DNA from: a virus
Virus record (IMG/VR): IMGVR_UViG_2786546475_000019
Location: 974-64,973 of that record
Direction: 5' to 3' (one strand)
DNA length: 64,000 nucleotides
Of this stretch, positions 1 to 60,403 are shown piece by piece. The notes beneath the pieces were generated by a model. It searched no databases and was not told the origin of the DNA. It saw nothing but the letters and a program-made list of their open reading frames with translations. Position numbers and translations under genes: made by a program. The first letter of the stretch is position 1. The number at the start of each line of letters is the position of its first letter.

Positions 1-2
1 AA

Positions 3-87
3 GGACCATGGACCAAGGACAAAATGATAAATCTGGAACTGGACCCCGGACCCGGACAGGCCGACCAAGGACCGTGGACCGTGGACC
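3..87 (+). repeat. array of seven same-orientation GGACC pentamers, including GGACCGT x3 at 69-89
   Basis: GGACC starts at 3,10,41,48,69,76,83; non-coding window edge. Confidence 0.8.
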
Positions 88-131
88 ATGTTGACAGCAC
101 CTAACATGTTCGCCATCTTTGGTCGGCCTGT

Positions 132-188
132 CCGCCCCAGCAAAAAGCCGGTTGATGTTTTGCCGCCCCAGGTGAAGGCCGGTTGTTG
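132..188 (+). repeat. two imperfect ~26-nt direct repeats (CCGCCCCAG...GCCGGTTG), period 31 nt
   Basis: CCGCCCCAG at 132 and 163; GCCGGTTG follows each. Confidence 0.6.
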
Positions 189-214
189 GGAGGTCGATCC
201 AGGTTATCATGTGG

Positions 215-262
215 GTGTTCAATTTTGCAACACCGACAAAAAAGTGTTGCAAAATTGAACAC
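215..262. repeat. perfect 19-bp inverted repeat GTGTTCAATTTTGCAACAC / GTGTTGCAAAATTGAACAC with 10-nt spacer
   Basis: arms 215-233 and 244-262 are exact reverse complements. Confidence 0.9.
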
Positions 263-357
263 CCCCCTGAAAGTGGGGTGTGCGGTATCGCACACCCCCT
301 GAAAGTGGGGTGTGCGATACCGCACGTGCGGAACCGCACAGTGAGCGGTATCGCTCA
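260..357. repeat. ~32-nt tandem duplication containing a perfect 18-bp inverted repeat (281-298 / 307-324, 8-nt loop), plus palindromes GTGCGG-AA-CCGCAC and TGAGCG-GTAT-CGCTCA
   Basis: TGCGGTATCGCACACCCC versus GGGGTGTGCGATACCGCA; GCGGTATCGC or its complement at 282, 314 and 345 (spacing 32 and 31). Confidence 0.9.
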
Positions 358-685
358 GCTCAACTGCCCTATATTAGATACTTCGGTGTAGTCAATTTGA
401 CTACATGATAGATCGGCGATTTTGCCTAAATCCAAGGCATCGCTGCCCACGGTATAGGCACAAGGATATTAGACGGTAAAAACCGACATATTGTGAGCTT
501 TCCAGATCGCTTTCCCGAAAACTAAGTGTCCAGTAACTATTTCAAAGTATTTTCACGCGGGGAAAACCGATGAATGGGAGCCGCAGACAGCGTGCCTAAA
601 ATTCAGGCAGGTATAATTGGGGCGTTCCAAGCGAACACGGGCAAGCCAAGCCAAATTCGGCACGCTTGTCAAGTTCCACGGGACT

Positions 686-792
686 CGCTACACTGTATGC
701 TGTAGCGTTTGATCTTTGACAATTTGGTTTCTAGTTGGCGGTTAAACTCGCTACGCGGTCCAAATATCGCGGACCACGTAGCGAGTTTAACC
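686..792. repeat. 7-bp hairpin (686-707) and a long inverted repeat with 22-nt arms and one mismatch (740-761 / 771-792); both share the ACTCGCTAC/GTAGCGAGT core
   Basis: GGTTAAACTCGCTACGCGGTCC versus GGACCACGTAGCGAGTTTAACC. Confidence 0.85.
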
Positions 793-793
793 G

Positions 794-826
794 GGCTTGA
801 ACGGTGACAGGTTCAAGCCTATTTCA
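794..826 (+). terminator. hairpin GGCTTGAAC-N8-GTTCAAGCC followed by TATTTCATT; weak terminator-like element just upstream of the 856 gene
   Basis: perfect 9-bp stem at 794-802 / 811-819; the T tract is poor. Confidence 0.3.
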
Positions 827-855
827 TTAAATCCTTATTTGGAAGGAATACCACT

Positions 856-2217
856 ATGTCACAAGAATCTAAACTTACCTCTGTTTTGTCGCTGCATTTC
901 GATTTTGACGCGAAGTCTTTACTTTGCGGCATGAATCCCGGTTCAGATCGATACTTGACGCCAAACCCGGTTCAATCGCTAGTAGATAGCTTATTTGCTG
1001 GTTGGAATAGCCAGGAAAGCTTGAAAGCCATCACTAATGGCAATCTCGCTAAAATCGATCCGCGATTCACTAAAGCGGACGACGTAGCTAGTTTCGCTGC
1101 TAAACAGCGTCAAACTTTCCGTTCTGAATTCAGACCGGGGACAGACTTGTGGGCAGCTCTTTGCGGCAAGTCTGACAAGTTCATCGCCATTGGACCAGCA
1201 CCTGCAAAGGGGCAGCCTGATGAACGTTTAAAGATTCCCGTTGAATCGATCTACGCGGTCCTTAATCTTTGGTGCGGTACCAAAGCGAATGGCATGACCG
1301 TATCGGGCAACAGGCGTATGCTTGCGCTACTGTTTGTTCTGGCCCTTGAATATGCGGAAGCATTCGCGGAAGCATTAGGGGCAGGGAAAACGAACGAAGA
1401 CGCGGAAGCTGTTGCTAAAAAGACAGTGAAAGCTCATCGGATTCCCGTAGTATTCAAATCGTGGGACACGTTCCAAGATTTGACTAGCGAGCAAATTGCG
1501 GACAATGAACGGGTTCACCAGTCCAACTATACGGAATTGGATCAGGTACGTTTGGCCGTTAAGATCAAACGCGAAGACTGGGGACTGTCCAAGCGGGATA
1601 TCGCTCGACAGATTCCGGGTTTGCGGACCGTAGCCAAAAAGACTGGCGAACTACGCATTAACCAGCGTAGGGCGTCCAATGCAACGGATCGTGCCGATCT
1701 TGTCATCTATGCCGATGACGGGCTGGATATGAACGTCATGGACCGGTTGACCACGGACAACGTAGAAAGCTACGTTGAAGGTGGACCGATTCCAGTGAAA
1801 CGGATCGCTTTCGAACACGTTCCCTTCCTCATCGACGCTACCAAAGAGTACAGCAGTACCCACGCTGCTATTCTTAAAGCGGTTTACCCTGATGCTGTTT
1901 TCAGTGAAGGGGAGGCTATTGGCATCGATGCCGATTCTAAAGCTTTGGAACGCTATTTTCGGTATATTATCGAACATAGCGGTTCAGCGAAACAAGCTTT
2001 GACGATCAAGCAATTACGCGATGCGATCACAAAAATTCCGTCGTCCAAAGACGTGGAAGTATCGCTACGCAAGCTGTACGAAGTGATTGCCGCTGGCGAT
2101 CCAAACGCACTAGCGTTACCAGCTTTGAAAGCTTCAGCGTGGGCCACAATTGTGGATCGCGAAGCGGAAGCGGAAGCGGAAGCGGAAGCGGAAGCGGAAG
2201 CGGAATCCGCCAACTAG
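856..2217 (+). CDS. hypothetical protein; weak ParB/Srx-like signature (MTVSGNRRMLAL); C-terminal (Glu-Ala)7 tail
   Basis: 453-aa ORF, GGAAGGAA RBS-like sequence upstream; flanked by repeat arrays. Confidence 0.55.
   Translation: MSQESKLTSVLSLHFDFDAKSLLCGMNPGSDRYLTPNPVQSLVDSLFAGWNSQESLKAITNGNLAKIDPRFTKADDVASFAAKQRQTFRSEFRPGTDLWAALCGKSDKFIAIGPAPAKGQPDERLKIPVESIYAVLNLWCGTKANGMTVSGNRRMLALLFVLALEYAEAFAEALGAGKTNEDAEAVAKKTVKAHRIPVVFKSWDTFQDLTSEQIADNERVHQSNYTELDQVRLAVKIKREDWGLSKRDIARQIPGLRTVAKKTGELRINQRRASNATDRADLVIYADDGLDMNVMDRLTTDNVESYVEGGPIPVKRIAFEHVPFLIDATKEYSSTHAAILKAVYPDAVFSEGEAIGIDADSKALERYFRYIIEHSGSAKQALTIKQLRDAITKIPSSKDVEVSLRKLYEVIAAGDPNALALPALKASAWATIVDREAEAEAEAEAEAEAESAN
2161..2202 (+). 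repeat. (GAAGCG)x7 hexanucleotide microsatellite encoding (EA)7
   Basis: seven exact tandem units at the 3' end of the 856..2217 CDS. Confidence 0.95.
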
Positions 2218-2232
2218 AAACCCTTAGCCGCG

Positions 2233-2263
2233 GACCGGTCCAATTTGGACCGGTCTATTTTTA
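2233..2263 (+). terminator. rho-independent terminator candidate
   Basis: GACCGGTCC-AATTT-GGACCGGTC (9-bp stem) followed by TATTTTTA, 16 nt after the stop codon. Confidence 0.7.
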
Positions 2264-2273
2264 TGCCCTTGGA

Positions 2274-2333
2274 ATATCAACTAGCTGCACGCAATATCAA
2301 ATAGCTGCACGCAATATCAACTAGCTGCACGCA
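2274..2333 (+). repeat. three tandem 20-bp iterons AATATCAA(C/A)TAGCTGCACGC
   Basis: units at 2274, 2294 and 2314; one substitution in the middle unit. Confidence 0.9.
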
Positions 2334-2430
2334 AACCCGGTAGGGGTTTATCACAAGTCGTTGCACCCAGGAACAATACCGGGGTCCGTCGCCCTTAACG
2401 CGACGACACAAGCATGATATTTTGTGCCAC

Positions 2431-2577
2431 GGTCCCCGGACCTAGCTACTCGGACCTAGCTACTCGGACCATGCACCCTGATCCACGGACCATGATCCAC
2501 GGACCACGGACCAAGCTACTTAGGCCAAAACACAATGATACTGGGGTAGGGGTTCAGAATCCGCCGGTCCGTGGACC
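2431..2577 (+). repeat. GGACC/GGTCC array (7 GGACC, 2 GGTCC) with tandem 14-mers GGACCTAGCTACTC x2 and GATCCACGGACCA(T/C) x2, ending in the palindrome GGTCCGTGGACC
   Basis: tandem units at 2438/2452 and 2480/2494; palindrome at 2566-2577. Confidence 0.85.
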
Positions 2578-2612
2578 AAAGAACTTCATTAACGTTTCCT
2601 CTGAAAATTATT

Positions 2613-2676
2613 TTCTGAATTTTTTCAGAATTAGGGGCAATCCGTCCTGCCCTCATTCGTATCTATAGGGAAGTCC
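2613..2676 (+). promoter_or_regulatory. promoter-like module A1: palindrome TTCTGAA-N4-TTCAGAA, then TTTTCA-N6-GGGGCAATCC-N11-CATTCGTATCTATAGGGAAGTCC
   Basis: one of three copies with identical geometry (others at 59266-59322 + and 58653-58708 -); 12 nt before ATG 2688. Confidence 0.6.
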
Positions 2677-2687
2677 ACCTACTGATA

Positions 2688-3257
2688 ATGATAATGACAA
2701 GAAAACTTTATCCAGCATTACCTGATCACCCTGAGTACCGTTGCAAGTCCACGGCTCAAAACAAACATTGTACGTTTCTATCATGTGACGGACTTCGCAA
2801 ACTGAATCTGTACGACGATCCAAGGCAATCTGATAAATGTCCCAAGCACGCCGGACGACCACCAAGTAAACAAACAGCTTTGGCAAAGTACATGGACACC
2901 CATCCTCATGAGGTGGGTTATCATTTGCCGGACCAAGCACCAAAGGTGCATTCCCAATCCCGAAGTGTCGCCGAAGAACTTCACATTCTCCGCACACTTC
3001 TTCAAAACACCCTGAACCAATGCAATACGTCGCTCGACTTACTCGCTAACACTGAGCGAATGACAGTCTTAAGTGATAAGATTGCTAACTTGATAAAAAC
3101 TGACGTATTCCTCGAAGAAAAAACAAAGAACTCCTTGACGCGGGACCAAATCATGGCCGTGCTCTCGGAGATACAACAAGTGATAACTCGGCATTGTTCG
3201 CCGGAGCAGGTCGCACTGATCCGTCAAGACTTCCAAGAACTAACCATTCCTGACTAA
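2688..3257 (+). CDS. hypothetical protein, first gene of the rightward structural operon
   Basis: 189-aa ORF directly downstream of module A1. Confidence 0.6.
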   Translation: MIMTRKLYPALPDHPEYRCKSTAQNKHCTFLSCDGLRKLNLYDDPRQSDKCPKHAGRPPSKQTALAKYMDTHPHEVGYHLPDQAPKVHSQSRSVAEELHILRTLLQNTLNQCNTSLDLLANTERMTVLSDKIANLIKTDVFLEEKTKNSLTRDQIMAVLSEIQQVITRHCSPEQVALIRQDFQELTIPD

Positions 3258-3268
3258 CCTCAGTTACT

Positions 3269-3574
3269 ATGCCAAGTCACATAAATCCAAATCGCATCAA
3301 ATCAGAGACGATGTTCGCCGGAGCACAGAACATCAACATTATCACTACGGAATCCAGCGTCACGCTCCGTGCTCCAGATGATACAACTCAATCGCTCACG
3401 CCAACCGGAACCCATCCAAATAAAGTAATCTCAGCAACCCTCGATCAAGCAGGTTTCTACACCGTAGACGGTCACATTGGAAAAGTCCTTGTGCTTGTTT
3501 CCACTTATGATGAAACCTACGGAGCTGCTTACAGAGGAACGGGACTCACCCCAGTAGTAGGCCAAGACGCCTAA
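3269..3574 (+). CDS. hypothetical protein
   Basis: 101-aa ORF, co-oriented and tightly spaced. Confidence 0.5.
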   Translation: MPSHINPNRIKSETMFAGAQNINIITTESSVTLRAPDDTTQSLTPTGTHPNKVISATLDQAGFYTVDGHIGKVLVLVSTYDETYGAAYRGTGLTPVVGQDA

Positions 3575-3585
3575 CCAAACAAACC

Positions 3586-5217
3586 ATGTCATACGCAGAC
3601 GAAACAACAGCAAAAGCAGCCGTAGCAAATGCCATTGGCAACGCAACAAGCGTCGATCCAGTGAGCAATACGGAACATGCTGACGTTCTTGATAATTTGA
3701 TCGAGAACATCTTCGCCGCTGATGGTATCACTGTGTATTTCGCCGAACCTCTGTCGGGACTTGGCGATGACGGCGACGTCACAATCTACGAAAACAAAAT
3801 CTACTCGAAAGCTGCCGGAACATGGTCCGAGGAACTTGAATTAACAAGCTGGACTTTCAATACTGCTGATCCTCCCACGTCCACGTCTCACACTTATGCA
3901 ATCTCGACAACCGGCCAATTATACGTAAACGTCGCCGGAACATGGACCTTGCAGCAGTTATCATTAGGCAAATACAAAGGTGCTCACTCAACCACCACAA
4001 AGTATTACGCCAATGATATTATCCTCTACTCAGGGGAATTGCAGTACGCTAACAGCACGCACAATCCTAAGACATATGACGCCGCAGACTGGACTTCGCT
4101 ACCTACTGCGTCATCAACCCACGTACTCCACGATGATATCTCAACACTTCCTTCCTCCCCGGACGGTTACACGCTTGAACTATATGACGGGATCGGCGAG
4201 GGGATGCTCTTTGAGCGGGTATCAAGTGCGTGGGTTTACCGAACACAGACAACAACTCCAGTTGTTGACCTAACCTCTGGCAACGCTTCAACGATTGCAG
4301 CATATTTGTCCGCTGGTCAAATATATCGGTACAATTTAACGACAGGCGAACCATACTACGTTGATAACGCCGGAGCACGGACCTCGCTTCCTCCAATCCA
4401 AACCGCCGTAACAGCCCTACCGTCAATTGTAGACGGTCCCGATCTATTGGTTTGGACCACGGACCCTGACGGGCATCGAGCGTACTTTAAAGGAGCTTCC
4501 GCGTACCAGAAGCTCCCACTTGTCCCAAGTATCCAAGAGTCCGATCAATCACTTTCGGAGAATCGGGAACTAGCGTACAACGCCCGAACACTATCATTCG
4601 ACGGTGACGGCACATTCCGCTTCGGAGACTTAAGCGACAACACCGACGGATATTATGCGGCCTTCAACTCCGGTGCGTTACAGTGGGCCAATGCTACACC
4701 GGAAACGAACCTCACGTCCATCACCCCTACCATTGTCAATTCGCAAAACCTAGCTCTGGTAAACGACGGCACTAGCAACAGTTTCACGTTGAAATACGCA
4801 GGAAGCCAAGATCAAGACTTTACGTTTCCAGCAGATCTTCCAGCTTTAGGTAATATTCTGGAAGTCACGGGCCTTGCAACAAGTTCCATTGTAGTAGGCT
4901 GGCGTAAGCCCGTAAAAGACTGGTTCACGCTAACCTCAGCCACCCCAACTGTGACAGTTGACGGCAATGATAGCAAACGCTTTAAACTTGACCCTGGGCA
5001 CACTCCAATTACAATTGCTTTCACTAATTGTGAGCAACATGATTTTGTTCTCCTCAAGATACGAGGTCACGCTACAAACTCAGTGTCAATGCCTGCCGGA
5101 GCAGACGGTGACGTTTTCTCTCTTAGTACGGATGATACAAAAGCAACTTTAGTCACAGCTATCATTGATGGTTCCGCCATCCATCTTGGCGTAATGAGGG
5201 ACGTATCATGGGCTTAG
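3586..5217 (+). CDS. putative tail fibre / receptor-binding protein
   Basis: 543 aa, Thr/Ser/Gly/Tyr-rich repetitive beta-type composition; adjacent to a beta-helix protein. Confidence 0.45.
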   Translation: MSYADETTAKAAVANAIGNATSVDPVSNTEHADVLDNLIENIFAADGITVYFAEPLSGLGDDGDVTIYENKIYSKAAGTWSEELELTSWTFNTADPPTSTSHTYAISTTGQLYVNVAGTWTLQQLSLGKYKGAHSTTTKYYANDIILYSGELQYANSTHNPKTYDAADWTSLPTASSTHVLHDDISTLPSSPDGYTLELYDGIGEGMLFERVSSAWVYRTQTTTPVVDLTSGNASTIAAYLSAGQIYRYNLTTGEPYYVDNAGARTSLPPIQTAVTALPSIVDGPDLLVWTTDPDGHRAYFKGASAYQKLPLVPSIQESDQSLSENRELAYNARTLSFDGDGTFRFGDLSDNTDGYYAAFNSGALQWANATPETNLTSITPTIVNSQNLALVNDGTSNSFTLKYAGSQDQDFTFPADLPALGNILEVTGLATSSIVVGWRKPVKDWFTLTSATPTVTVDGNDSKRFKLDPGHTPITIAFTNCEQHDFVLLKIRGHATNSVSMPAGADGDVFSLSTDDTKATLVTAIIDGSAIHLGVMRDVSWA

Positions 5218-12961: not shown

Positions 12962-13218
12962 ATCCAGTAGCTCACACCCTTCGATTGATATCAGTGACAG
13001 CAACAGCCGAAACTCTTAAGAGCCAAAACGATTTGTTCCACGGAGCTTCGGAAATTCGAGTGACCCCTGCTGCTGATATTACAATGAAGGATTTGCAGAC
13101 GGGAGCTTCTGTTACATTAACTTCCGGCCAAACACATTCCCTACCTGCCGCTAACGTTGCGACAGAATTTCAATTCACCACAAGTGGAGCCGAAGTGTTC
13201 CAAGTTTACTCCGCATGA
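12952..13218 (+). CDS. hypothetical protein
   Basis: 88-aa ORF immediately upstream of the terminase. Confidence 0.45.
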   Translation: MSMNPVAHTLRLISVTATAETLKSQNDLFHGASEIRVTPAADITMKDLQTGASVTLTSGQTHSLPAANVATEFQFTTSGAEVFQVYSA

Positions 13219-14894
13219 TAACTGAACTGTTTGACCATTTAGCCGAAAGCTTAACCCACAGCACAATCACAAATTGTGCTCAGTGGGCGTTAGAGCGTAG
13301 GGTTATGGGACGACCGTTCGAGGGCCCATGGAATTTTAAATTATTTCCGTGGTTATACACTCCGCACGTTTCCAACCATCCATTTCGGTTGGCATTGAAA
13401 GGTGCTCAATTAGGGTTTACAGAGTGGGCAATTAACGAAGCTTTTTACGCTATTGATCATAAGCGTTCAAATGTTTTATATTGTCTGCCTACAAAGGGCA
13501 ACGCGGGTGACTTTTCAACCACCCGCTTCAACCCTGCCCTAGCCCTTAGCCCCTATATCGCGAACTTGTTCTCTGGTGCAGATAATGTATCATTGAAGAC
13601 GGCAGGTTCTCGGTCACTGTATATTAGGGGTTCAAAGGCTAGAGCAGACTTGAAGTCTTTGCCAATTACTGTTTTGATACTTGACGAAATTGATGAAATG
13701 CCTAAAGAGTCAATCTCTCTAGCTCATCATCGTCTTGATGGACAAGCCGTAGGTTCAACTTCATTGCTTGAATTATCAACTCCTACTCTACCTGATATGG
13801 GGATTGACGCTGAGTACAAATTATCAAACCAGATGATTTACGTATTCCAGTGCCCAGGATGTAGCAAGTATATTGACTTGCAATACCCTAGGAATTTTAA
13901 GCTAACTGCTACGCGAATGAACGATCCTGACATTGAAAAGAGTTATTTCTTTTGTCACGAGTGTGATTACGTAATAGACCACGAAGCCAAACCAGAGATT
14001 TTTAAATGCAAGGAAATGGGCGGCACGGGTCACTACAGACCGCAAGTAAAATATGCTGACCGAGAAGGGTACTATGTAAATCAAATGTACTCCTCGGCCA
14101 AAGGCGGAACGCCAATTGAGTGGGCTAAAGCCGTAATACTTGCAGAAACAAATCCGTCAAAAGAACAAGAGCTTTGGAACTCTAAAGTTGGTAAAGGCCA
14201 TGCAACAGAGAACGCAAAGCTAGAAGAAGGAGTCTTAGAGCAGCATAAGCGAAACTACACTATTGCCGACTACGAACTCCATGATAATCGTATTAGAACA
14301 ATTGGGTGTGATGTTGGAGCAGTTTGCGATTTAGTGTGCTTAGAGTGGACGTGGGAGTCTGATCTTGGCCTGCCTAATGATAGATACCGTCCTCGACTGG
14401 TAGGTGAATTATCATTGCCCCGATCTTCGGAAGATGCCCGAGCCATTTTGGACTACTTCCGAAAGATGAACGCTCATATGTTTGTTATGGATTCCGAACC
14501 TGAAAGTCGTTTTGCTCGACAAGTCATCAATTTGCTAGGCGACTATGGGTTCATGTGTGATTATGGGAAAGGATACAAAGCAGGACAAGTTAATGTTAAA
14601 GAAGAAGATGGCTTTATCACTGTAAATCGAACTACATGGTTGGATATAACTATGTCTCGATTCACAGCTGCTAACAAAGACGGAACAGATTTACCTAGCG
14701 ACATAAGCGAACGATTCCTTCAACATATGACAGCCCCTGCTAGATATTACAAAGATGATGCAAATGGCGACCCCATAGCTATTTACAAAAATGAAAAAGC
14801 GGATCACTTGTTTCATGCGTGGACCTACGCTGAGATAGGATTGCCTCTTTACTTCCTAACAGCCGAAGGCGAAGATATCGATGTTATCTTTTAG
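13215..14894 (+). CDS. terL: terminase large subunit, GpA-like
   Basis: LKGAQLGFTEWAINEAFYAIDH...LYCLPTKGNAGDFSTTRFNPAL and zinc-ribbon FQCPGCSKYIDL resemble the lambda GpA family; followed by a portal-sized ORF. Confidence 0.75.
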   Translation: MITELFDHLAESLTHSTITNCAQWALERRVMGRPFEGPWNFKLFPWLYTPHVSNHPFRLALKGAQLGFTEWAINEAFYAIDHKRSNVLYCLPTKGNAGDFSTTRFNPALALSPYIANLFSGADNVSLKTAGSRSLYIRGSKARADLKSLPITVLILDEIDEMPKESISLAHHRLDGQAVGSTSLLELSTPTLPDMGIDAEYKLSNQMIYVFQCPGCSKYIDLQYPRNFKLTATRMNDPDIEKSYFFCHECDYVIDHEAKPEIFKCKEMGGTGHYRPQVKYADREGYYVNQMYSSAKGGTPIEWAKAVILAETNPSKEQELWNSKVGKGHATENAKLEEGVLEQHKRNYTIADYELHDNRIRTIGCDVGAVCDLVCLEWTWESDLGLPNDRYRPRLVGELSLPRSSEDARAILDYFRKMNAHMFVMDSEPESRFARQVINLLGDYGFMCDYGKGYKAGQVNVKEEDGFITVNRTTWLDITMSRFTAANKDGTDLPSDISERFLQHMTAPARYYKDDANGDPIAIYKNEKADHLFHAWTYAEIGLPLYFLTAEGEDIDVIF

Positions 14895-16871: not shown

Positions 16872-17738
16872 ATGTTTGTTCCATTTTATCAACGCTTTCA
16901 ACTACCATTTTTGAATGTTGACGACGGTGCTGGCGGTTCTGGTGGCAGCAGCGAAGGTGATACTGGAGAAGGTGATACTGGAGAAGGAGGCTCTTTTGAA
17001 CCTATCACTTCTCAAGATCAACTAAACCGTGTCATCGGTTCGCGAATTGCTAAAGTCAAAACGCAAGCTGAGAAGCTACAGAGTCAACTGGAAGCTGTAA
17101 AGCAAGAGAAGCGTGCAACTCTTGAACACTTGAAAGAGCTTGAACAAAATCATTCGTTAAGTGAAGAACAACGAGAGAAGAATCGGTCAAAAATCCAAGA
17201 ACTCGAAAACTCTCTAATGACAGAGAAAGAACGAGCTGAAAAAAGGGCCAAAGAACTCTCTACAAAACATCAAAAAGAGTTGAAAGCTCTGGAAGATGAA
17301 AAAGACACTTGGCGGTCTCGTTATGAAAATTCAAGCATTGAACGTGCTATCAAAGACGCGGCTCTTGAACATGGAGCTAAAGTTCCAAACCAGATTTTTA
17401 GTATGCTTCGCGGCAACACGAAACTGGAAGAAATTGTTGAAGATGGGCAAGCAACTGGCAGGTTCCAATCTGTGACTACTATCATGGGTTACGGAGAAGA
17501 TGGAGAAAATGTTACAGATTTCACTTTGCCAACCGCAGAAGCAATTGCTAAGATGCGGGAAGATGGCTTGAATGATAATCTGTTCGACTCCAAACAAAAA
17601 GCTGGAACTGGTCGAGGCGGACGAACCGGGACTCAACGATACACCGCAGATCGTCCACCTGTTCCTGCCGATTTCGGCGGAGATATGGACGCTTTCAAAG
17701 ACGCTTACGACGACTGGCGTAAGAAATTTTTAACTTAA
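16872..17738 (+). CDS. scaffolding protein
   Basis: 288 aa, highly charged coiled coil, between portal and capsid genes. Confidence 0.6.
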   Translation: MFVPFYQRFQLPFLNVDDGAGGSGGSSEGDTGEGDTGEGGSFEPITSQDQLNRVIGSRIAKVKTQAEKLQSQLEAVKQEKRATLEHLKELEQNHSLSEEQREKNRSKIQELENSLMTEKERAEKRAKELSTKHQKELKALEDEKDTWRSRYENSSIERAIKDAALEHGAKVPNQIFSMLRGNTKLEEIVEDGQATGRFQSVTTIMGYGEDGENVTDFTLPTAEAIAKMREDGLNDNLFDSKQKAGTGRGGRTGTQRYTADRPPVPADFGGDMDAFKDAYDDWRKKFLT

Positions 17739-33403: not shown

Positions 33404-33612
33404 GCCAAAGCCAACTTGAAGCTTACGCCAGACAACGTAAGTTTAGGCCCAAGATGGAAAATGTTCAAATTTGTGAACAGTGCGACCACTTAATACGTGA
33501 TCGCTACTGTTCCAAATTTGGCAAGTGTCCTGACGCTCAAAAAGATTTCTTTAAAGCCCTTGAACGAAGTAAATGTCCTTTAGAGAAATTTCCGTCGCAG
33601 CTCAGCGAATAG
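33400..33612 (+). CDS. small Cys-rich protein, last gene of the rightward arm
   Basis: 70 aa, CEQCDH...C...C; 3' end overlaps the convergent gene by 33 nt. Confidence 0.45.
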   Translation: MSQSQLEAYARQRKFRPKMENVQICEQCDHLIRDRYCSKFGKCPDAQKDFFKALERSKCPLEKFPSQLSE

Positions 33613-33996
33613 AATTCTAACTTGCTTAGGAGTTAACTCTAACAAACGCCCGATTTCCGAATACGTATAGTATTGAAGTCGTAAACTTACAGCCCATCGC
33701 TCCTCGACAGTTAGCCTATCTAGGTCAAACTGATCGAGGAATTCTTCTGCACTTCTTGATAATTCTTCAATATCGCCTAACGCTTCGGTATCATTGTTTG
33801 TTTGCATTTTCTTTCGACGACGGTAAGCGTCAATACCTCTCGACCGTAGTAAGGTTCTTAAGTGTGAGATGAATTTCTTTTCCTCAACTAGCTCATGATA
33901 ATTCTCCCACGCTTGTAAAAATTCCAAAGATAGCGAGCAGTCAAATTTAGTTTCAAACTCTCGCAACAAGTAAACATAATCGTCGATCCTTCGCAT
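33580..33996 (-). CDS. sigma-70 region-4-like HTH protein (minimal ECF/LuxR-type)
   Basis: LTVEERWAVSLRLQYYTYSEIGRLLELTPKQVRILFAELRRKF matches the region 4.2 pattern. Confidence 0.5.
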   Translation of the reverse strand: MRRIDDYVYLLREFETKFDCSLSLEFLQAWENYHELVEEKKFISHLRTLLRSRGIDAYRRRKKMQTNNDTEALGDIEELSRSAEEFLDQFDLDRLTVEERWAVSLRLQYYTYSEIGRLLELTPKQVRILFAELRRKFL

Positions 33997-40710: not shown

Positions 40711-41024
40711 TACTTCTGCTCCTCGAAATGCTTAGATGGAAAACGATGCCAGCCAAATAATAACCGCTCCATGTTCCGTGGTTCGTCGATCTCAGCAACC
40801 GGACGAGCACCACCGACCGTGGTGAACTGGACGTACATACACTTCTTACGCTTATACCCAATACACAGATGGCCTTTCAACCGTTTGATAGGTCCACGGT
40901 ACATGTAGTATTTGGTGCGACTGAGCCGCCGGAACCGTTTCGTTAACCTTTCCATGACTGTTCCCAAGCGTGCAACGCTTTGAGCAAGTTCCTCAGTTGA
41001 ACAACTTAAAAGGTTATTTATCAT
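40710..41024 (-). CDS. hypothetical basic protein
   Basis: 104-aa ORF. Confidence 0.5.
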   Translation of the reverse strand: MINNLLSCSTEELAQSVARLGTVMERLTKRFRRLSRTKYYMYRGPIKRLKGHLCIGYKRKKCMYVQFTTVGGARPVAEIDEPRNMERLLFGWHRFPSKHFEEQK

Positions 41025-41377
41025 TTGTTAAACTCCTCAATATATTTTATCAACTCAGGTGTCGGTTCTGCAACAATAATCGGTAACATTAGTCCGATCT
41101 CACTGATACTTCGAGCCAACGTTTCAACATAATCTTGAGGTGCGACCCGTATAGGGTTTGGTGTTAGCTCGATATCTTCAATTTTCAAAACTTTTTGAGT
41201 CCGATTATCCGGCCCACGAACCACGTAACATTTGATAGAGTCGTACCCTACCAACTTACACGCTTCCAATCTTGCGTTGCCGCCAAGGACCACGTACTTT
41301 TTCTTAAGTTTGAAGCCTGGAGTCGAAAGCACACAAGCCGCAGCTCCGAGGGCCGCCATAAATTCTCTACGTTCCAT
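41021..41377 (-). CDS. ParB/Srx-like domain protein with apparently swapped motif order and a Tat-like N-terminus
   Basis: YVVLGGNARLEACKLVGYDSIKCYVV (GxxR box) precedes IEDIELTPNPIRV...LARSISEIGLMLPIIV; N-terminal ERREFMAALGAAACV. Confidence 0.35.
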   Translation of the reverse strand: MERREFMAALGAAACVLSTPGFKLKKKYVVLGGNARLEACKLVGYDSIKCYVVRGPDNRTQKVLKIEDIELTPNPIRVAPQDYVETLARSISEIGLMLPIIVAEPTPELIKYIEEFNK

Positions 41378-43911: not shown

Positions 43912-44387
43912 TCCGGCTCAGTAGTTCCAACGTATCCCATACCTTTGCCAAGAATCTTGTCTTGATAATAATACCATCGGTATGAGAAGATACAGTCTTC
44001 GAAATCTCCGGCCAAGCCTTTATAATATCCAGGCATAGCCAAGTTTGGAGGAGTAAGAGGGCCACGTCGTATGTAACACGGAGATTGATAAAGATACCCA
44101 ACCCGGTTCCATACTTCATGTAAAGCTAACCCTCTCTTATCCCGCTCCTTCAACAACGCTATCATATGCTTCAAAGTCCATTGATAATTTGAATCAGTGG
44201 AACGAACCCATTGAGTTGACGGGTGATTTGCGAAGCATGGTTTACACATTCCTTGACGCCAAAGTCCAACTTCGTCATGTGCCGTTGATAACATTTGGGC
44301 ACACTCAATCGGCATTTTTGTTAAATGGTCCGTGGCCATGTAGCTAGCTGCAAGGACCGGGTCCATATCAAGGAAGAAAACATTCAC
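43881..44387 (-). CDS. conserved phage protein of unknown function
   Basis: N-terminal FFLDMDPVLAASYMATDHLTKMPIECAQMLSTAH recalls a widespread phage/virus family I cannot name with confidence. Confidence 0.5.
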   Translation of the reverse strand: MNVFFLDMDPVLAASYMATDHLTKMPIECAQMLSTAHDEVGLWRQGMCKPCFANHPSTQWVRSTDSNYQWTLKHMIALLKERDKRGLALHEVWNRVGYLYQSPCYIRRGPLTPPNLAMPGYYKGLAGDFEDCIFSYRWYYYQDKILGKGMGYVGTTEPEWLLHLKGKL

Positions 44388-44770
44388 GCCCCAAGTCCAA
44401 GCGATTTGATGGAAGCCCTTTTGAGTGCTGTCAAGGTAACAACACGTCCAAGTAGCTTGGAAAGTGTTTCTTCGAAGTTATCAAGTTGCTCCGATAATTT
44501 GTATTCGAAGCCGTTCAAAAGTATCACTTCTTCCAAGTTCTCAGAAACCCAAGAATTTAAGTCTTGGTCTTTCACAAGATACTTACCGTCTTGAATCGTT
44601 AACTTGCCATTGATAGTTGGGCCTTTCAATTCGTCTCGCCAAATTTTCACGTTTTCAGGAGCGGTTATGTTAATTGAAGCAGCTCCTGATCCTGCATCAA
44701 AGATTGTTACCCGAACGTCGTTCCCAATTGTAAATGATTGCGACGCCCAGCGTTTAAGAGTTAACGCCAT
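44384..44770 (-). CDS. hypothetical protein
   Basis: 128-aa ORF. Confidence 0.5.
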   Translation of the reverse strand: MALTLKRWASQSFTIGNDVRVTIFDAGSGAASINITAPENVKIWRDELKGPTINGKLTIQDGKYLVKDQDLNSWVSENLEEVILLNGFEYKLSEQLDNFEETLSKLLGRVVTLTALKRASIKSLGLGA

Positions 44771-51284: not shown

Positions 51285-51629
51285 TCAGTCTCCTCTTATC
51301 AATTGATAAATTTCTTTGTAAGTATGTACTGGCATATTATACTTGTCCGCTATATCCTGCCAGTTCTCTTCCCACCAGCTAAAAGAATGACACTGACCCC
51401 CAACTTTCAACACTCCAAAGTCTTGGTTGACTTCTACTTTGCGGCCGTGTAAAATTCCGAGTGTTATCAGTTTGCCGTAGCCGTAGCCGTAGCCGTAGCC
51501 GTAGCCGTCGCCGTCGCCGTAGCCGTCGCCGTAGCCGTAGCCGTAGCCGTAGCCGTCGCCGTAGCCGTAGCCGGTCCCGTAGCCGGTCCCGTAGCCGGTC
51601 CCGTAGCCGTCGCCGTGGTTACTTAACAT
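51285..51629 (-). CDS. protein with an N-terminal Gly-Tyr(-Asp/Thr) repeat region
   Basis: GDGYGTGYGTGYGTGYGYGDGYGYGYGYGDGYGDGDGYGYGYGYGYG followed by a ~60-aa non-repetitive domain. Confidence 0.55.
   Translation of the reverse strand: MLSNHGDGYGTGYGTGYGTGYGYGDGYGYGYGYGDGYGDGDGYGYGYGYGYGKLITLGILHGRKVEVNQDFGVLKVGGQCHSFSWWEENWQDIADKYNMPVHTYKEIYQLIRGD
51474..51616. repeat. hexanucleotide microsatellite (GCCGTA/GCCGTC/GCCGGTCCCGTA variants) encoding the GY repeats
   Basis: about 143 nt of near-perfect 6-nt periodicity. Confidence 0.9.
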
Positions 51630-51640
51630 TTGATAGTTCC

Positions 51641-51730
51641 TTATAAATGATCAACTTTGGTCTTTGCTTCACGCGGACCGATGTACGGTTCCAACGTAAA
51701 TAAGTCATTGATATTTTCACATAGTTTCAT
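51641..51730 (-). CDS. tiny coupled ORF (29 aa)
   Basis: ATGA overlap with the TraR/DksA stop; preceded by AACAGGAGAGCAAG, nearly identical to the RBS block of 50190..50981. Confidence 0.35.
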   Translation of the reverse strand: MKLCENINDLFTLEPYIGPREAKTKVDHL

Positions 51731-51933
51731 CTTGCTCTCCTGTTTGCTCGCTTAGCGAGTCGTTGAGTTTCAGGATCGTCCGGAAGTATCACTAGCGATC
51801 CTGCGGTCTTATGGCCGTACACCATGTACCCTGTAGCACGCTCCGTGGTGCTACAGGTTGCACACGTCATTGTGTGCGGAAGTACCTCTAAGCGTTCACT
51901 ATCAATTTGTGTTTTGCAGTTTATGCAGTTCAC
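51727..51933 (-). CDS. TraR/DksA-family C4 zinc-finger protein
   Basis: CINCKTQIDSERLEVLPHTMTCATC. Confidence 0.55.
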   Translation of the reverse strand: MNCINCKTQIDSERLEVLPHTMTCATCSTTERATGYMVYGHKTAGSLVILPDDPETQRLAKRANRRAR

Positions 51934-58652: not shown

Positions 58653-58708
58653 GACTTCACCCTATAGCTACGAGTGGCGGGATATCGGATTGCCCCACAA
58701 AATGAAAA
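58653..58708 (-). promoter_or_regulatory. promoter-like module A3
   Basis: - strand TTTTCA-TTTTGT-GGGGCAATCC-GATATCCCGCC-ACTCGTAGCTATAGGGTGAAGTC, about 70 nt upstream of ATG 58586. Confidence 0.6.
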
Positions 58709-58932: not shown

Positions 58933-59017
58933 GAGCCAAATTTTACGTTAAATTGGTATGTTTCGACGGGAATTGATACCGTCTCACTGCTCTCCTCCCG
59001 AACCTTGCATCTTGGCT

Positions 59018-59058
59018 CACGCTACACGTATCACGCTACACGTATCACGCTACACGTA
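59018..59058 (+). repeat. tandem 14-mer CACGCTACACGTAT x2.9
   Basis: units at 59018, 59032 and 59046; followed by ACGT/CGCGTG-rich repeats up to 59225. Confidence 0.9.
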
Positions 59059-59142
59059 CGCGTAGCACGTGGGTACGTGCCAGGGCCAAAGACCTTGAGT
59101 TCTCTTTTAAGTCTCGGAACTGACGTGTAAATTAGTAAGCGG

Positions 59143-59226: not shown

Positions 59227-59359
59227 AAATGATATGATACATGGTTTTCAAAATACTTGAAAATATTTTCAAAATACGGGGCAATCCTGCCCGGTTTTAT
59301 TCGTAGCTATAGGGGGAAAGTAGACTGTTTTACTTTCCAAAACGACTATCATATCATTT
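59227..59359. promoter_or_regulatory. operator pair AAATGATATGATA (59227-59239) / TATCATATCATTT (59347-59359) bracketing module A2
   Basis: exact 13-mers identical to the 54169/54272 pair. Confidence 0.7.
59257..59322 (+). promoter_or_regulatory. promoter-like module A2: palindrome TTGAAAATATTTTCAA, then TTTTCA-N6-GGGGCAATCC-N11-TATTCGTAGCTATAGGGGGAAAGT
   Basis: same 29-nt spacing from GGGG to CTATAGGG as A1 and A3. Confidence 0.6.
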
Positions 59360-59374
59360 GTGGAGAAGTCCAAC

Positions 59375-60403
59375 ATGGCAGAAGAAACTCAAGCTACCGA
59401 AACTATCATTTCAGAAGGATTGACTCAAGAGCAGTTCGAATCCGTGGGTAGCGACATTCAGGCGATTTCTATCAATGAGATCACCGTCCCTGAAGTTAAG
59501 CTTCGTGGCGTGAACACCGAAGGGGAAGAATACTTGGAACTCAAGGATTCTATCAAATCGCAAGGACTGTTGCAGAACATTACTGTACGTCCCGTCGAAA
59601 TCGCTGGCAAGCAAGGCTACGAACTTATCACTGGGCTCCAGCGATATACTGCTTGCAAGGAACTCGGACATGAGACTATCGACGCTCGTGTGAAAGAAAT
59701 GTCCGAGCAAGAAGCTTGGTTGTGGATGATCCACGAAAACACTCAACGTGTTACGCAAAAAGCGTCAGATATCACCAAGCTCTTGAAGCGTCTGATCGCC
59801 AAAGATCCAACGATGTCTATTCCACGACTCGCGAAGCTTTTGTCGAAGTCCGTGCCCCAAGTACAGAACTATCTGGCACTTGATAAACTGACCGACGAGG
59901 CAAAGGAATTGGTCGATGATGAAACCATCGGTTTGACCAACGCAGTTGCTCTCGCCAAGCTCCCACCTGAGGAGCAGGAAGACTTGCTTGCTGACGCGTC
60001 AACAATGACCGTTGCTGAATTTGTTCCACTTGTAAACGAACGAAAAGAAAAGGTTGATCAAGCCAATCGTGAAGCTCGTGAACAGGAAAAGAACACGTTT
60101 TCTCCGAAACCAAAAGCTCGCAAGAAAGACGATCTCGTCACCGAGCTTGGAATTATCATGGGCACGGAGACTGGCACTTCGCTTCTTATGGAGTGCTTGA
60201 ACGGTCAGGATGTTGATACTTCCAACCAGAATGTCAAGGCAGTTATCACTCAGACAATGGAGTGGGTCCTGAACCTTGATCCAGCGTCCGTCGACGCTCA
60301 ACGAGCGAAATGGGAAGACGCCAAAAAGAAGCGGGAAGAACGAGAAAAAGCGAAAGCTGCCGCTCGTGCCGAACGTGAAAAGGCGAAAGCCCTGGAAATC
60401 TAA
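59375..60403 (+). CDS. ParB-like N-terminal domain protein
   Basis: LKDSIKSQGLLQNITVRPV...YELITGLQRYTACKELGHETIDARV; start set to ATG 59375 (GGAG RBS), track start 59360 is GTG; Lys/Glu/Ala-rich C-terminus. Confidence 0.75.
   Translation: MAEETQATETIISEGLTQEQFESVGSDIQAISINEITVPEVKLRGVNTEGEEYLELKDSIKSQGLLQNITVRPVEIAGKQGYELITGLQRYTACKELGHETIDARVKEMSEQEAWLWMIHENTQRVTQKASDITKLLKRLIAKDPTMSIPRLAKLLSKSVPQVQNYLALDKLTDEAKELVDDETIGLTNAVALAKLPPEEQEDLLADASTMTVAEFVPLVNERKEKVDQANREAREQEKNTFSPKPKARKKDDLVTELGIIMGTETGTSLLMECLNGQDVDTSNQNVKAVITQTMEWVLNLDPASVDAQRAKWEDAKKKREEREKAKAAARAEREKAKALEI

What the first reader, a model, noticed from the sequence alone, without database searches (positions are those of the whole stretch)
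1..188. GGACC pentamer array and 31-nt phased direct repeats at the window edge
Seven GGACC pentamers, all in one orientation, fall in the first 87 nt, including GGACCGT x3. Two CCGCCCCAG...GCCGGTTG repeats follow, 31 nt apart. A second array (2431-2577: 7 GGACC, 2 GGTCC, tandem 14-mers) lies on the other side of gene 856..2217. Arrays like this are typical of cis sites bound cooperatively, such as pac/terminase sites, centromere-like parS sites or origin iterons. Which of these applies cannot be decided from sequence.
Basis: partly seen in the sequence, partly recalled or inferred. Interest (0 to 1): 0.55.

Follow-up and report, generated by a model that had tools for sequence, protein, structure and literature searches.

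The report
Phage GGACC heptamer binding-site arrays
Two real, non-coding arrays of a 7-base repeat (core GGACC) bracket one gene at the boundary between the replication and virion genes of an uncultured ~72-kb marine phage; they are almost certainly docking sites for a DNA-binding protein, most likely connected with DNA packaging or genome ends, but which protein and which job cannot be settled from sequence.

Summary
The window starts inside array 1. In the source contig the array has 15 GGWCC units in 170 nt, nine of them at exact 7-nt spacing. Array 2 (2431-2577) is real. So are the 31-nt repeats, which belong to a 10-copy CCGCCCCA(A)G...GGT(T)GAT family.

Local density far exceeds Markov backgrounds. 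The arrays are non-coding, and copy number differs between near-identical strains.

The element is a ~72-kb marine siphovirus with a circular assembly. The arrays lie in two of its three large non-coding regions, bracketing an orphan 453-aa gene. TerL lies 10.6 kb downstream of array 2. No ParA was found.

Three comparative results bear on function:
- Distant relatives carry arrays with different units at the same place, upstream of the homologue of the 189-aa gene.
- The same GGACC/CCGTGG heptads lie 150-1300 nt upstream of terS or terL in 38 unrelated viral contigs.
- Array 2 ends 61 nt before a promoter-like element that recurs at two other operons.

Best reading (about 0.35): cooperative protein-binding arrays marking the packaging or terminus region. 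Rivals are promoter-upstream regulatory arrays, ParB/KorB-type sites, origin iterons and functionless microsatellite-like repeats. This is a new variant of a known kind.

The parts
1..87 (+). Window part of GGACC heptad array 1. The full array is L001 876-1044: 15 GGWCC units, nine of them at exact 7-nt spacing.
   Evidence: Strain B has 7 instead of 9 contiguous units, a 14-nt indel, so the array is non-coding.
53..134 (.). Inverted repeat (19-nt arms 53-71 / 116-134) enclosing the last three GGACC units. The arms are 29 nt in the sister strain.
   Evidence: I4. DNA fold z = -5.4 (window) and -10.9 (strain B).
132..193 (+). Two 31-nt phased repeats CCGCCCCAG-N7-GCCGGTTG. They belong to a 10-copy same-orientation family CCGCCCCA(A)G...GGT(T)GAT. 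Three more copies lie in upstream non-coding DNA and five in the 3' coding repeats of the upstream gene.
207..270 (.). Large palindrome, 27-nt arms with a 10-nt spacer
   Evidence: I1, z = -8.0
278..357 (.). Four operator-like palindromes of the form GTGCGG(T/A)A(T/C)CGCAC, 14-32 nt apart start to start
   Evidence: D3, I3, I10. Present in variant form in strain B.
739..793 (.). 23-nt-arm hairpin just upstream of the 453-aa gene. It holds one GGTCC (757) and one GGACC (771).
   Evidence: I2, z = -8.9
856..2217 (+). Orphan 453-aa gene bracketed by the two arrays. The C-terminal (AE)n tail is encoded by a GAAGCG x7.5 repeat.
   Evidence: No Pfam, PHROG, NCBIfam or PDB match. Only two homologue clusters in 1.8 billion representatives. 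AlphaFold2 pLDDT 41.
2232..2256 (+). Intrinsic-terminator-like hairpin GGACCGGTCCAATTTGGACCGGTCT followed by a T-run. It accounts for the GGACC/GGTCC at 2232, 2237 and 2247.
   Evidence: L001 3189-3213
2273..2334 (+). 20-nt tandem repeat AATATCAANTAGCTGCACGC, 3 copies here and 4 in scaffold_85 and strain B
2431..2577 (+). GGACC array 2: 7 GGACC and 2 GGTCC at 7- and 14-nt periods, interleaved with TGATCC units
   Evidence: Conserved with copy-number and unit changes in strain B.
2603..2635 (.). T-rich element with palindrome TTCTGAA-TTTT-TTCAGAA, between array 2 and the promoter-like element. Analogous T-rich blocks follow the arrays in relatives.
2639..2670 (+). Promoter-like element GGGGCAATCC-N-TTCGTATCTATAGGG. 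Further copies lie at 59276-59314 (+, before ParB) and about 58660-58705 (-, before the primase gene).
2688..3257 (+). 189-aa gene with a Cys/His-rich N-terminus (invariant C19, C28, C51, H54; motif CPKHAGRP) and a helical C-terminal half. It is the only gene that stays next to an array in every relative.
   Evidence: AlphaFold2 pLDDT 56. Only weak coiled-coil matches in PDB.

Best explanation
The GGACC arrays are non-coding platforms of a 7-bp unit, TGGACCR. The unit is palindromic apart from its central base. A sequence-specific, probably dimeric, DNA-binding protein would bind side by side along them and build a higher-order nucleoprotein complex.

The two arrays point the same way. They bracket a 2.4-kb cassette holding one gene with its own promoter and terminator. 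The cassette sits at the junction between the replication module and the virion-gene module of a ~72-kb marine siphovirus.

The job I think most likely is marking the packaging or genome-terminus region. This could be as terminase accessory sites (pac/cosB-like) or as the boundaries of a terminally repeated segment. The complex formed on concatemeric DNA would then tell the terminase where to start.

- **Shown:** the arrays exist, are non-random, are non-coding, vary in copy number and are conserved in position.
- **Inferred:** protein binding, the identity of the protein, and the packaging role.

The 189-aa protein encoded just downstream is my candidate for the binding protein.
For: 1. Density and exact 7-nt phasing are far beyond chance.
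2. Indels of 14 and 8 nt between strains, inside otherwise identical sequence, exclude coding. Copy number varies while the flanks are 100% conserved.
3. The genome has only three large non-coding regions. Two of them carry these arrays. The stretch upstream of TerL is tightly coding, so a non-coding pac/cos site cannot be next to the terminase gene.
4. In every relative whose upstream DNA is available, the homologue of the 189-aa gene has an array of same-orientation repeats 100-250 nt upstream. The unit differs each time: CCCAAGAGCC, CCCAAGAGTCTCA, ACCCTAAAGGCAT, GAACCAAGAATCAC. That pattern is expected of a site co-evolving with a phage-encoded specificity protein.
5. The same GGWCC/CCGTGG heptads occur in 84 IMG/VR loci, against 11 for a permuted control. 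In 38 loci they lie 150-1300 nt upstream of terS or terL at stereotyped distances. In 15 of 16 arrays upstream of TerL, CCGTGG is on the coding strand.
6. Arrays lie within 300 nt of a contig end in 16 of 84 loci, against 5.3 expected.
7. TerL is GpA-type. Its only isolate-phage matches (22-24% identity) are mostly Herelleviridae, which to my knowledge package with kb-long terminal repeats. A ~2.76-kb terminal repeat, similar in size to the bracketed segment, has been measured in a Bacillus myovirus (PMC5418689). I did not check that this phage carries the same type of terminase.
Against: - TerL is 10.6 kb from array 2, and no small terminase is recognisable. The 189-aa protein has no detectable similarity to any TerS family.
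- There are two arrays, not one unique site.
- The one relative with DNA upstream of the 453-aa homologue (L005) has no array there, so the bracketing is not conserved.
- Array 2 sits immediately upstream of a promoter-like element. A different heptad array (CACGCTA/CACGTAT) sits upstream of the other two copies of that element, which fits a regulatory role just as well.
- The phages that carry the same heptads share no packaging protein with this one. Short GGACC heptad runs also occur in at least 120 bacterial contigs with none of those terminase genes nearby. The analogy is therefore not homology.
- Contig ends at arrays can be assembly breaks at repeats.
- Physical ends are unknown, because the assemblies are circular.
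Confidence: 0.35

Rival explanations
1. Upstream regulatory arrays. A phage regulator polymerises on the heptads and activates or represses the adjacent phage-specific promoter, as the omega repressor does on contiguous 7-bp heptads upstream of pSM19035 promoters.
For: - Array 2 ends 61 nt before the element GGGGCAATCC-N-TCGTAKCTATAGGG. That element recurs before the ParB and primase operons, each time preceded by T-rich repeats.
- A second 7-nt-period array (CACGCTA/CACGTAT, 59017-59075) lies upstream of those copies.
- A related promoter-like motif flanks the same divergent region in a relative with 54% PolA identity.
- A relative encodes an ECF-type sigma factor (weak precomputed Pfam hit), and the window encodes a protein with a sub-threshold sigma region-4 match.
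- Contiguous heptads with an occasional inverted unit match the architecture of omega sites (PMC9499535).
Against: - Array 1 has no copy of the promoter element downstream. It lies about 580 nt from the nearest sigma-70-like match.
- No ribbon-helix-helix protein was found among 50 small ORFs.
- In the unrelated phage family the arrays sit 200-650 nt from the gene start, which is far for operators.
- Relatives lack heptad arrays in the ParB/primase region.
Confidence: 0.25
2. Centromere-like or ParB/KorB-type loading sites. One of the phage's ParB-domain proteins binds the arrays for partition of a plasmid-like state or for long-range silencing.
For: - Three ParB_N-domain proteins are encoded: 59360-60403 with an HTH, a 280-aa one beyond the window, and a small one among the short ORFs, which I assign to 41021-41377 from its sequence.
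- Two of them are conserved in the replication module of relatives, one with a weak KorB hit.
- Arrays on both sides of a gene recall pB171 parC1/parC2 (from memory).
Against: - No ParA-type Walker A in the window, and none in the Pfam lists for the rest of the genome in the sister contig.
- The ParB gene is about 12 kb from the arrays and has its own repeats and palindromes next to it.
- The bracketed 453-aa protein shows no ParB similarity by Pfam or hhalign.
- Known parS sites for HTH-type ParB proteins are palindromes, not 7-bp direct repeats (from memory).
Confidence: 0.12
3. Replication-origin elements. The repeats are iterons for an initiator, next to an AT-rich unwinding region.
For: - The CCGCCCCA(A)G...GGT(T)GAT family has 10 same-orientation copies at 27-31-nt spacing.
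- It continues into the 3' end of the upstream gene, as lambda ori lies inside gene O (from memory).
- It lies next to a visibly AT-rich stretch at L001 270-440.
- The left 760 nt of the spacer are 100% identical between strains that differ by about 8% next door.
Against: - This fits the 31-nt repeats, not the 7-bp GGACC units, which are too short and contiguous for classical iterons.
- The cumulative GC-skew minimum lies at about 58-62 kb, by the primase/ParB spacer. That spacer is the more natural origin candidate.
Confidence: 0.1
4. Functionless microsatellite-like repeats that expand and contract by slippage, and at most act as recombination break points.
For: - Copy number differs between near-identical strains.
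- Short GGACC heptad runs are found in many bacterial phyla.
- The strain-divergent segment begins about 200-300 nt to the right of array 1.
Against: - Array presence and position are conserved in both strains and, with other units, in distant relatives.
- Orientation is strongly biased, and distances to terS/terL in another family are stereotyped.
Confidence: 0.08

Closest known systems
Omega (ribbon-helix-helix ParB) heptad arrays of plasmid pSM19035 (parS / promoter operators)
   Same: Contiguous 7-bp units without gaps, four or more copies, mostly direct with occasional inverted units, several arrays per replicon, placed upstream of promoters (PMC9499535). The longest run here is nine exact units with one inverted.
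   Different: The unit sequence is unrelated. No ribbon-helix-helix protein and no ParA were found. The host element is a phage, not a plasmid. Array 1 is not at a promoter.
T7 short-repeat arrays SRL/SRR (CCTAAAG units) flanking the terminal repeat at the concatemer junction (from memory, not checked here)
   Same: Two arrays of a short unit in one orientation bracket a defined segment in the genome-end region, and their function is unresolved. One relative (L039) uses ACCCTAAAGGCAT units, which contain the T7 heptamer.
   Different: T7 units are spaced rather than contiguous. They bracket a 160-bp gene-free repeat. T7 has a different terminase type. Terminal redundancy of the bracketed segment is untested here.
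Terminase recognition repeats: P1 pac hexamers (4+3 TGATCA/G), lambda cosB R sites, SPP1 pacL/pacR boxes (from memory)
   Same: Clusters of short repeats bound cooperatively by a small terminase. The same heptads lie upstream of terS/terL in 38 unrelated viral contigs. Array 2 also contains TGATCC units.
   Different: The arrays are not adjacent to the terminase gene, no TerS is recognisable, there are two arrays 2.4 kb apart, and they have many more contiguous units.
Centromere arrays flanking par genes (pB171 parC1/parC2, R1 parC) (from memory)
   Same: Arrays of short repeats on both sides of a gene.
   Different: The bracketed gene shows no similarity to ParA, ParM or ParR, and there is no partition ATPase.
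Iteron origins (lambda ori inside gene O; plasmid iterons) (from memory)
   Same: This applies to the 31-nt repeats only: a 10-copy family in helical-scale spacing, partly inside the 3' end of a gene, next to an AT-rich stretch.
   Different: No initiator has been identified. GC skew points to the other spacer. It does not apply to the 7-bp GGACC units.

Membership tests
ParABS partition site (parS) | A ParA-type (deviant Walker A) ATPase is encoded with the centromere-binding protein | tested here: not met
   No KGGxGK[ST]-type motif among the four P-loop ORFs in the window. No ParA family in the Pfam lists for the rest of the genome in L002.
ParABS partition site (parS) | The centromere-binding protein gene is adjacent to its site | tested here: inconclusive
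   The bracketed 453-aa protein has no ParB or ribbon-helix-helix signal. The ParB+HTH gene at 59360-60403 is about 12 kb away on the circular map.
ParABS partition site (parS) | The centromere-binding protein binds the repeats | not testable with these tools
   Needs EMSA or ChIP.
Omega-type heptad operator/centromere | Four or more contiguous 7-bp units, in direct or inverted orientation | tested here: met
   Nine GGWCC units at exact 7-nt spacing, one inverted, at L001 911-971. There are only 2-3 contiguous units per block inside the window itself.
Omega-type heptad operator/centromere | A ribbon-helix-helix protein is encoded by the element | tested here: inconclusive
   No ribbon-helix-helix family among 50 small ORFs at E<=0.01. 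Such domains are short and easily missed.
Terminase recognition site (pac/cos) | Lies in or next to the small/large terminase genes | tested here: not met
   TerL is at 13215-14894, 10.6 kb downstream of array 2. No TerS family was detected.
Terminase recognition site (pac/cos) | Coincides with the physical ends or the packaging start | not testable with these tools
   Only circular or permuted assemblies are available. No reads are available.
Terminase recognition site (pac/cos) | Single site per genome | tested here: inconclusive
   Two arrays 2.4 kb apart could be two halves of one complex or two separate sites.
T7-like repeat arrays flanking a direct terminal repeat | Two same-orientation arrays bracket a segment | tested here: met
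   Both arrays carry GGACC on the + strand, at 1-87 and 2431-2577.
T7-like repeat arrays flanking a direct terminal repeat | The bracketed segment is terminally redundant (2x coverage, defined ends) | not testable with these tools
   Needs read mapping.
Iteron replication origin | Direct repeats of about 17-30 bp next to an AT-rich region and an initiator gene | tested here: inconclusive
   The CCGCCCCA(A)G family fits in size, spacing and its AT-rich neighbour. The GGACC 7-mers do not. No initiator is identified, and the GC-skew minimum is at 58-62 kb.

The most novel reading that the evidence does not exclude
The GGWCC/CCGTGG heptad arrays may be an undescribed, widespread class of phage cis element. 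It would mark the upstream side of packaging and virion operons in unrelated marine and freshwater phages: this GpA-terminase siphovirus and the HTVC023P/DSL-LC04-like group. It would be read by a factor that is not the terminase itself, either a host protein or a small conserved phage protein. Contiguous 7-bp units would build a filament-like complex that defines genome ends.
Probability: 0.15. Interest if true: 0.7.

Novelty: new variant of a known kind. Interest (0 to 1): 0.45.

Why it matters
For most uncultured phages, packaging signals, genome ends and regulatory sites are unknown. This locus gives a concrete, testable cis element in a phage whose neighbouring proteins are orphans.

The same heptad recurs upstream of terminase genes in dozens of unrelated viral contigs. 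If the arrays mark termini or packaging starts, they could be used to orient and complete metagenomic phage genomes. They could also assign a function to the 189-aa protein family. If they are regulatory, they define a phage promoter architecture of array, T-rich block and a TATAGGG-type element.

Tried and rejected
1. **DNA similarity.** Megablast of 1-3000 against 50,697 phage records found no match.
2. **RNA genes.** Rfam and tRNA scans of the window found nothing.
3. **The 453-aa protein.**
   - Pfam, PHROGs, NCBIfam and PDB sequence searches found nothing.
   - The exhaustive HMMER search found only two relatives.
   - hhalign against the phage's own ParB gave probability 0.2%.
   - AlphaFold2 with three sequences gave pLDDT 41.
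   - By eye I saw GxRR and ENxxR-like motifs suggesting a ParB-like fold. No tool supports this, and I do not claim it.
4. **The 189-aa protein.**
   - No family or PDB relative beyond weak coiled-coil matches.
   - AlphaFold2 with six sequences gave pLDDT 56. That is too low for a meaningful fold search, so none was run.
   - In L042 its homologue is followed by a 510-aa ORF, but that ORF is not a recognisable terminase.
5. **Related loci.** Scans of viral and metagenome contigs for either protein found nothing new.
6. **cos/pac next to TerL.** I looked for a non-coding site there, but the region is fully coding.
7. **Chi-like polar motif.** CGCCCCA is 14:1 on the + strand, and 12:0 outside the repeats. 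It is only the top of 2441 tests (p = 5e-4) and is not over-represented, so it is not significant. GGACC heptads occur in hosts of very different phyla and G+C content, which argues against a host-specific Chi.
8. **Relatives found through DNA polymerase.** Contigs either ended before the spacer or did not reach it.
9. **Literature.** Searches for GGACC or heptamer arrays with terminase returned nothing relevant.

Full report
**What is in the sequence**

The first 87 nt hold seven GGACC and no GGTCC, at 3, 10, 41, 48, 69, 76 and 83.

Two repeats CCGCCCCAG...GCCGGTTG follow at 132 and 163.

The second array (2431-2577) has seven GGACC and two GGTCC, with a 14-mer CGGACCTAGCTACT at 2.4 copies.

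The densest 150-nt windows contain 9 and 7 GGWCC. In 200 simulations each under Markov order 1, 3 and 4, the highest count per sequence averaged 2.8-3.5 and never exceeded 5. The global count (154) matches the order-4 expectation. The signal is therefore strong local clustering, not a general excess.

**The window cuts array 1**

The 453-aa protein is encoded on TARA scaffold_85 (72,259 bp). That scaffold matches the window with no mismatches and two indels over 12,183 nt. It supplies 957 nt upstream of window position 1.

There the array continues. L001 876-1044 holds 15 GGWCC units (14 GGACC, 1 GGTCC). Nine are at exact 7-nt spacing. Degenerate units (GGCCC, GAACC, GATACC) flank them, together with two copies of CAAAATGATAAATCT.

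The last three units lie in the left arm of an inverted repeat, 53-71 / 116-134. In the sister strain its arms are 29 nt long. DNA fold z-scores are -5.4 and -10.9.

**Genome context**

A second contig (scaffold_159, 71,449 bp) runs across the junction, and its two ends map to one point near window position 34,900. The assembly is therefore circular, at about 72 kb.

The window encodes:
- TerL at 13215-14894 (PHROG 675, E 2e-69; Pfam GpA_ATPase)
- a portal protein, a scaffold protein, the major head protein and a tape-measure protein
- on the other strand and beyond, a primase-helicase, ParB, an SNF2 helicase, a second ParB_N protein, DNA polymerase A and a ligase

This is a siphovirus-type phage.

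The non-coding spacer that contains array 1 runs from the stop of a 185-aa gene to the 453-aa gene and is about 1.66 kb long. It holds, in order:
- an AT-rich stretch
- three CCGCCCCAAG...CAGGTGAT repeats; the same motif is also the 30-nt tandem repeat that forms the 3' end of the 185-aa gene
- array 1 with its inverted repeat
- the two 31-nt repeats
- a palindrome with 27-nt arms
- four operator-like palindromes
- a sigma-70-like match
- a 23-nt-arm hairpin

After the 453-aa gene come a terminator-like hairpin, a 20-mer present in three to four copies, array 2, a T-rich palindrome, a promoter-like element and the 189-aa gene.

Only three non-coding regions longer than 300 nt exist in the window's genome. 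Two are these. The third is the primase/ParB spacer.

**The arrays are non-coding and unstable in copy number, but conserved in place**

The two strain types are 100% identical over the left 760 nt of the spacer. Within array 1 they differ by a 14-nt indel (9 against 7 contiguous units) and by an 8-nt indel in the hairpin arm. Neither length is a multiple of three.

Array 2 differs by one 14-mer copy between the window and scaffold_85, and the 20-mer differs by one copy. Strain B keeps array 2 with several unit changes; for example, GGTCCGTGGACC becomes GGGCCGTGAACC.

From about window 419 to 5078 the strains are only 91.7% identical, and further right the fibre-like genes are replaced. The replication module is 99.6% identical.

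**Neighbouring proteins**

The 453-aa protein is an orphan. It has no family or PDB match and only two homologue clusters among 1.8 billion representatives. hhalign finds no relation to ParB, and the structure model is unusable.

The 189-aa protein has invariant C19, C28, C51 and H54, the motif CPKHAGRP, and a helical C-terminal half. It also has no detectable relatives of known function.

No ParA-type Walker A motif was found. No ribbon-helix-helix family turned up among 50 small ORFs.

**Comparative evidence 1: same place, different repeat**

The few distant relatives of the 189-aa gene (25-35% identity) each carry a same-orientation array 100-250 nt upstream, wherever the contig reaches that far. 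A T-rich block follows each array.

| Locus | Repeat unit | Copies |
|---|---|---|
| L005 | CCCAAGAGCC | 6 |
| L041 | CCCAAGAGTCTCA | about 5 |
| L039 | ACCCTAAAGGCAT | 7 |
| L042 | GAACCAAGAATCAC, plus ATCGCCGGATCG units | 2 or more |

In L005 and L041 the homologue of the 453-aa gene lies upstream of the array, as it does here. In L005 that gene is preceded directly by a lysozyme-like gene, with no array 1. Array 2 is therefore the conserved feature. A unit that changes between lineages fits a site co-evolving with a phage-encoded reader.

**Comparative evidence 2: same repeat, different phages**

The pattern GGACCRTGGACCRTGGACC occurs in 32 IMG/VR loci. GGTCCRTGGTCCRTGGTCC occurs in 60, of which 52 are new. 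A permuted control (GCAGCRT) occurs in 11.

Fifty of the 84 loci encode homologues of one TerS (PHROG 51-like) and/or one TerL (PHROG 38) or its portal protein. This TerL is related to those of Pelagibacter phages HTVC023P/027P and phage DSL-LC04.

In 38 loci the array lies 150-1300 nt upstream of the terS or terL start, at stereotyped distances (for example 637-645 nt in several loci). In 15 of 16 arrays upstream of TerL, CCGTGG is on the coding strand.

Isolate DSL-LC04 has degenerate CCGTGG heptads in the 700-nt spacer before TerL. HTVC027P does not. One contig (L110) has about 600 nt of such heptads.

Arrays lie within 300 nt of a contig end three times more often than expected, 16 against 5.3. 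This could reflect true ends or assembly breaks.

The window phage shares no packaging protein with this group. Short GGACC heptad runs also occur in at least 120 bacterial contigs from many phyla, with none of these terminase genes nearby. The resemblance is in kind and unit, not common descent of the locus.

**A competing clue: a repeated promoter-like element**

Array 2 ends 61 nt before GGGGCAATCC-N16-TTCGTATCTATAGGG (2639-2670).

Two further copies lie before the ParB operon (59276-59314) and, on the other strand, before the primase operon (about 58660-58705). Each is preceded by T-rich ATTTTCA-type repeats. Upstream of those copies lies another 7-nt-period array, CACGCTA/CACGTAT, at 59017-59075.

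A relative with 54% PolA identity has an analogous divergent pair ending in ACTTACGGGAGAGTC. Another relative encodes an ECF-type sigma factor (weak precomputed Pfam hit). The window has a 138-aa protein with a sub-threshold sigma region-4 match.

'Heptad array, T-rich block, phage promoter' is thus a repeated layout in this phage, and it supports a regulatory reading for array 2. Array 1 has no such element downstream.

**Weighing the options**

- **Partition is weakened.** There is no ParA, and the ParB gene lies far away with its own repeats nearby.
- **Classical iterons do not fit a contiguous 7-bp unit.** They do fit the CCGCCCCA(A)G family. The GC-skew minimum lies by the primase/ParB spacer.
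- **Packaging or terminus marking is favoured, for three reasons.**
  - Elimination: there is no non-coding DNA next to TerL.
  - Position: the arrays sit at the module junction.
  - The terS/terL association of the same heptads elsewhere.
- **A terminal repeat of this size has precedent.** TerL's distant isolate matches are mostly Herelleviridae, which to my knowledge have kb-long terminal repeats. A ~2.76-kb repeat was measured in a Bacillus myovirus (PMC5418689). I did not check that phage's terminase type.
- **The packaging reading also has weaknesses.** These are the distance to TerL, the lack of a recognisable TerS, the presence of two arrays, and the promoter adjacency.

I put packaging/terminus at 0.35, promoter-upstream regulation at 0.25, ParB/KorB-type sites at 0.12, origin at 0.10 and no function at 0.08.

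In all functional readings the physical mechanism is the same: side-by-side binding of a protein to contiguous pseudo-palindromic heptads. The best-studied precedent is omega on pSM19035 (PMC9499535).

**Verdict**

This is a real feature, larger than reported. It is a new variant of a known kind of cis element. Its specific function is open, but it can be tested directly with read-end mapping and binding assays.

Noticed in passing
window 2639-2670 (+), 59276-59314 (+), about 58660-58705 (-): A ~45-nt promoter-like element GGGGCAATCC-N14-16-TCGTAKCTATAGGG(N)GAAGT lies before three operons: the 189-aa gene, ParB and the primase gene. Its 3' part resembles T7-type CTATAGGGA initiation regions, yet no single-subunit RNA polymerase was found. 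It may depend on a phage sigma factor.
   Followed up: partly
window 59017-59075: A second 7-nt-period array (CACGCTA/CACGTAT, about 9 units, also scored as a 14-mer x3) lies in the primase/ParB spacer. Next to it are CGCGTGCTCC-type repeats and an inverted pair TTATCATTT...AAATGATAA. The spacer is a candidate origin or control region.
   Followed up: partly
window 278-357: Four palindromic operator-like sites GTGCGG(T/A)A(T/C)CGCAC, 14-32 nt apart start to start. In strain B they appear as GTGCGGGATCGCAC / GTGCGGAACCGCAC variants. This looks like a repressor operator cluster.
   Followed up: no
window 419-5078 and beyond, compared with L043: Strain mosaicism. The replication module (99.6%) and the left spacer (100%) are near-identical between the two strain types. 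Positions 419-5078 are 91.7% identical, and the fibre-like genes further right are replaced (616 aa here; 415 aa with a faint Laminin_G_3 hit, plus 241 aa, there).
   Followed up: partly
L001 1-135 and L002 19801-19873 (upstream of the window): The 185-aa gene ends in a 30-nt tandem repeat (CGCCCCAAGCGGAAGCAGGTGATGCCGAGC; five or more copies in one strain, about 2.4 in the other). This is the same motif as the non-coding CCGCCCCAAG...CAGGTGAT repeats downstream. Scaffold_85 breaks inside it.
   Followed up: partly
whole window: CGCCCCA occurs 14 times on the + strand and once on the - strand (12:0 outside 1-2700), regardless of gene direction. It is the most skewed 7-mer, but it is not significant after correction for 2441 tests and is not over-represented.
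   Followed up: yes
window 2161-2205: GAAGCG x7.5 encodes the (AE)n acidic tail of the 453-aa protein. Strain B's scaffold_159 (L043) encodes the tail with GAAGCC units, and a 439-aa variant (P0001) lacks it.
   Followed up: no
window 51474-51616: A hexamer repeat (GCCGTA x24) encodes, on the - strand, a 114-aa Gly-Tyr/Asp-rich repeat protein (GYGTGYGYGDGYG...).
   Followed up: no
window 41021-41377, 44384-44770, 51727-51933, 33580-33996: The small ORFs include a third ParB_N-domain protein, a CsrA-like protein, a DksA/TraR-type zinc finger and a 138-aa protein with a sub-threshold sigma-70 region-4 match. Only the last is tied to its coordinates by a tool. I assigned the first three to coordinates from their sequences. 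Two ParB-domain genes are conserved in the replication module of relatives, with no ParA.
   Followed up: partly
L001 414-442 and L241 about 16950-16975: A non-coding block CTCGC.CGC.CGCGTATAAAAAAAT is conserved between this phage and a relative with 54% PolA identity, at the start of the long spacer. The relative's contig ends about 40 nt later.
   Followed up: no
L039 1-125: The array upstream of the 189-aa homologue uses ACCCTAAAGGCAT / AACCTAAAGGCAT units. These contain the heptamer CCTAAAG, which I recall from the T7 end-proximal repeat arrays. This may be coincidence.
   Followed up: no
P0008 (DNA polymerase of the same genome): NCBI holds the identical protein under 'MAG: Acidobacteria bacterium' on a 72,328-bp contig. 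This phage genome seems to have been binned into a bacterial MAG.
   Followed up: no
L117 and later loci (bacterial genome contigs): GGACC heptad runs, mostly 3-5 units, occur in at least 120 bacterial contigs across many phyla, several per genome in some MAGs. None has the HTVC023P-like terS/terL nearby. Their nature was not examined.
   Followed up: partly
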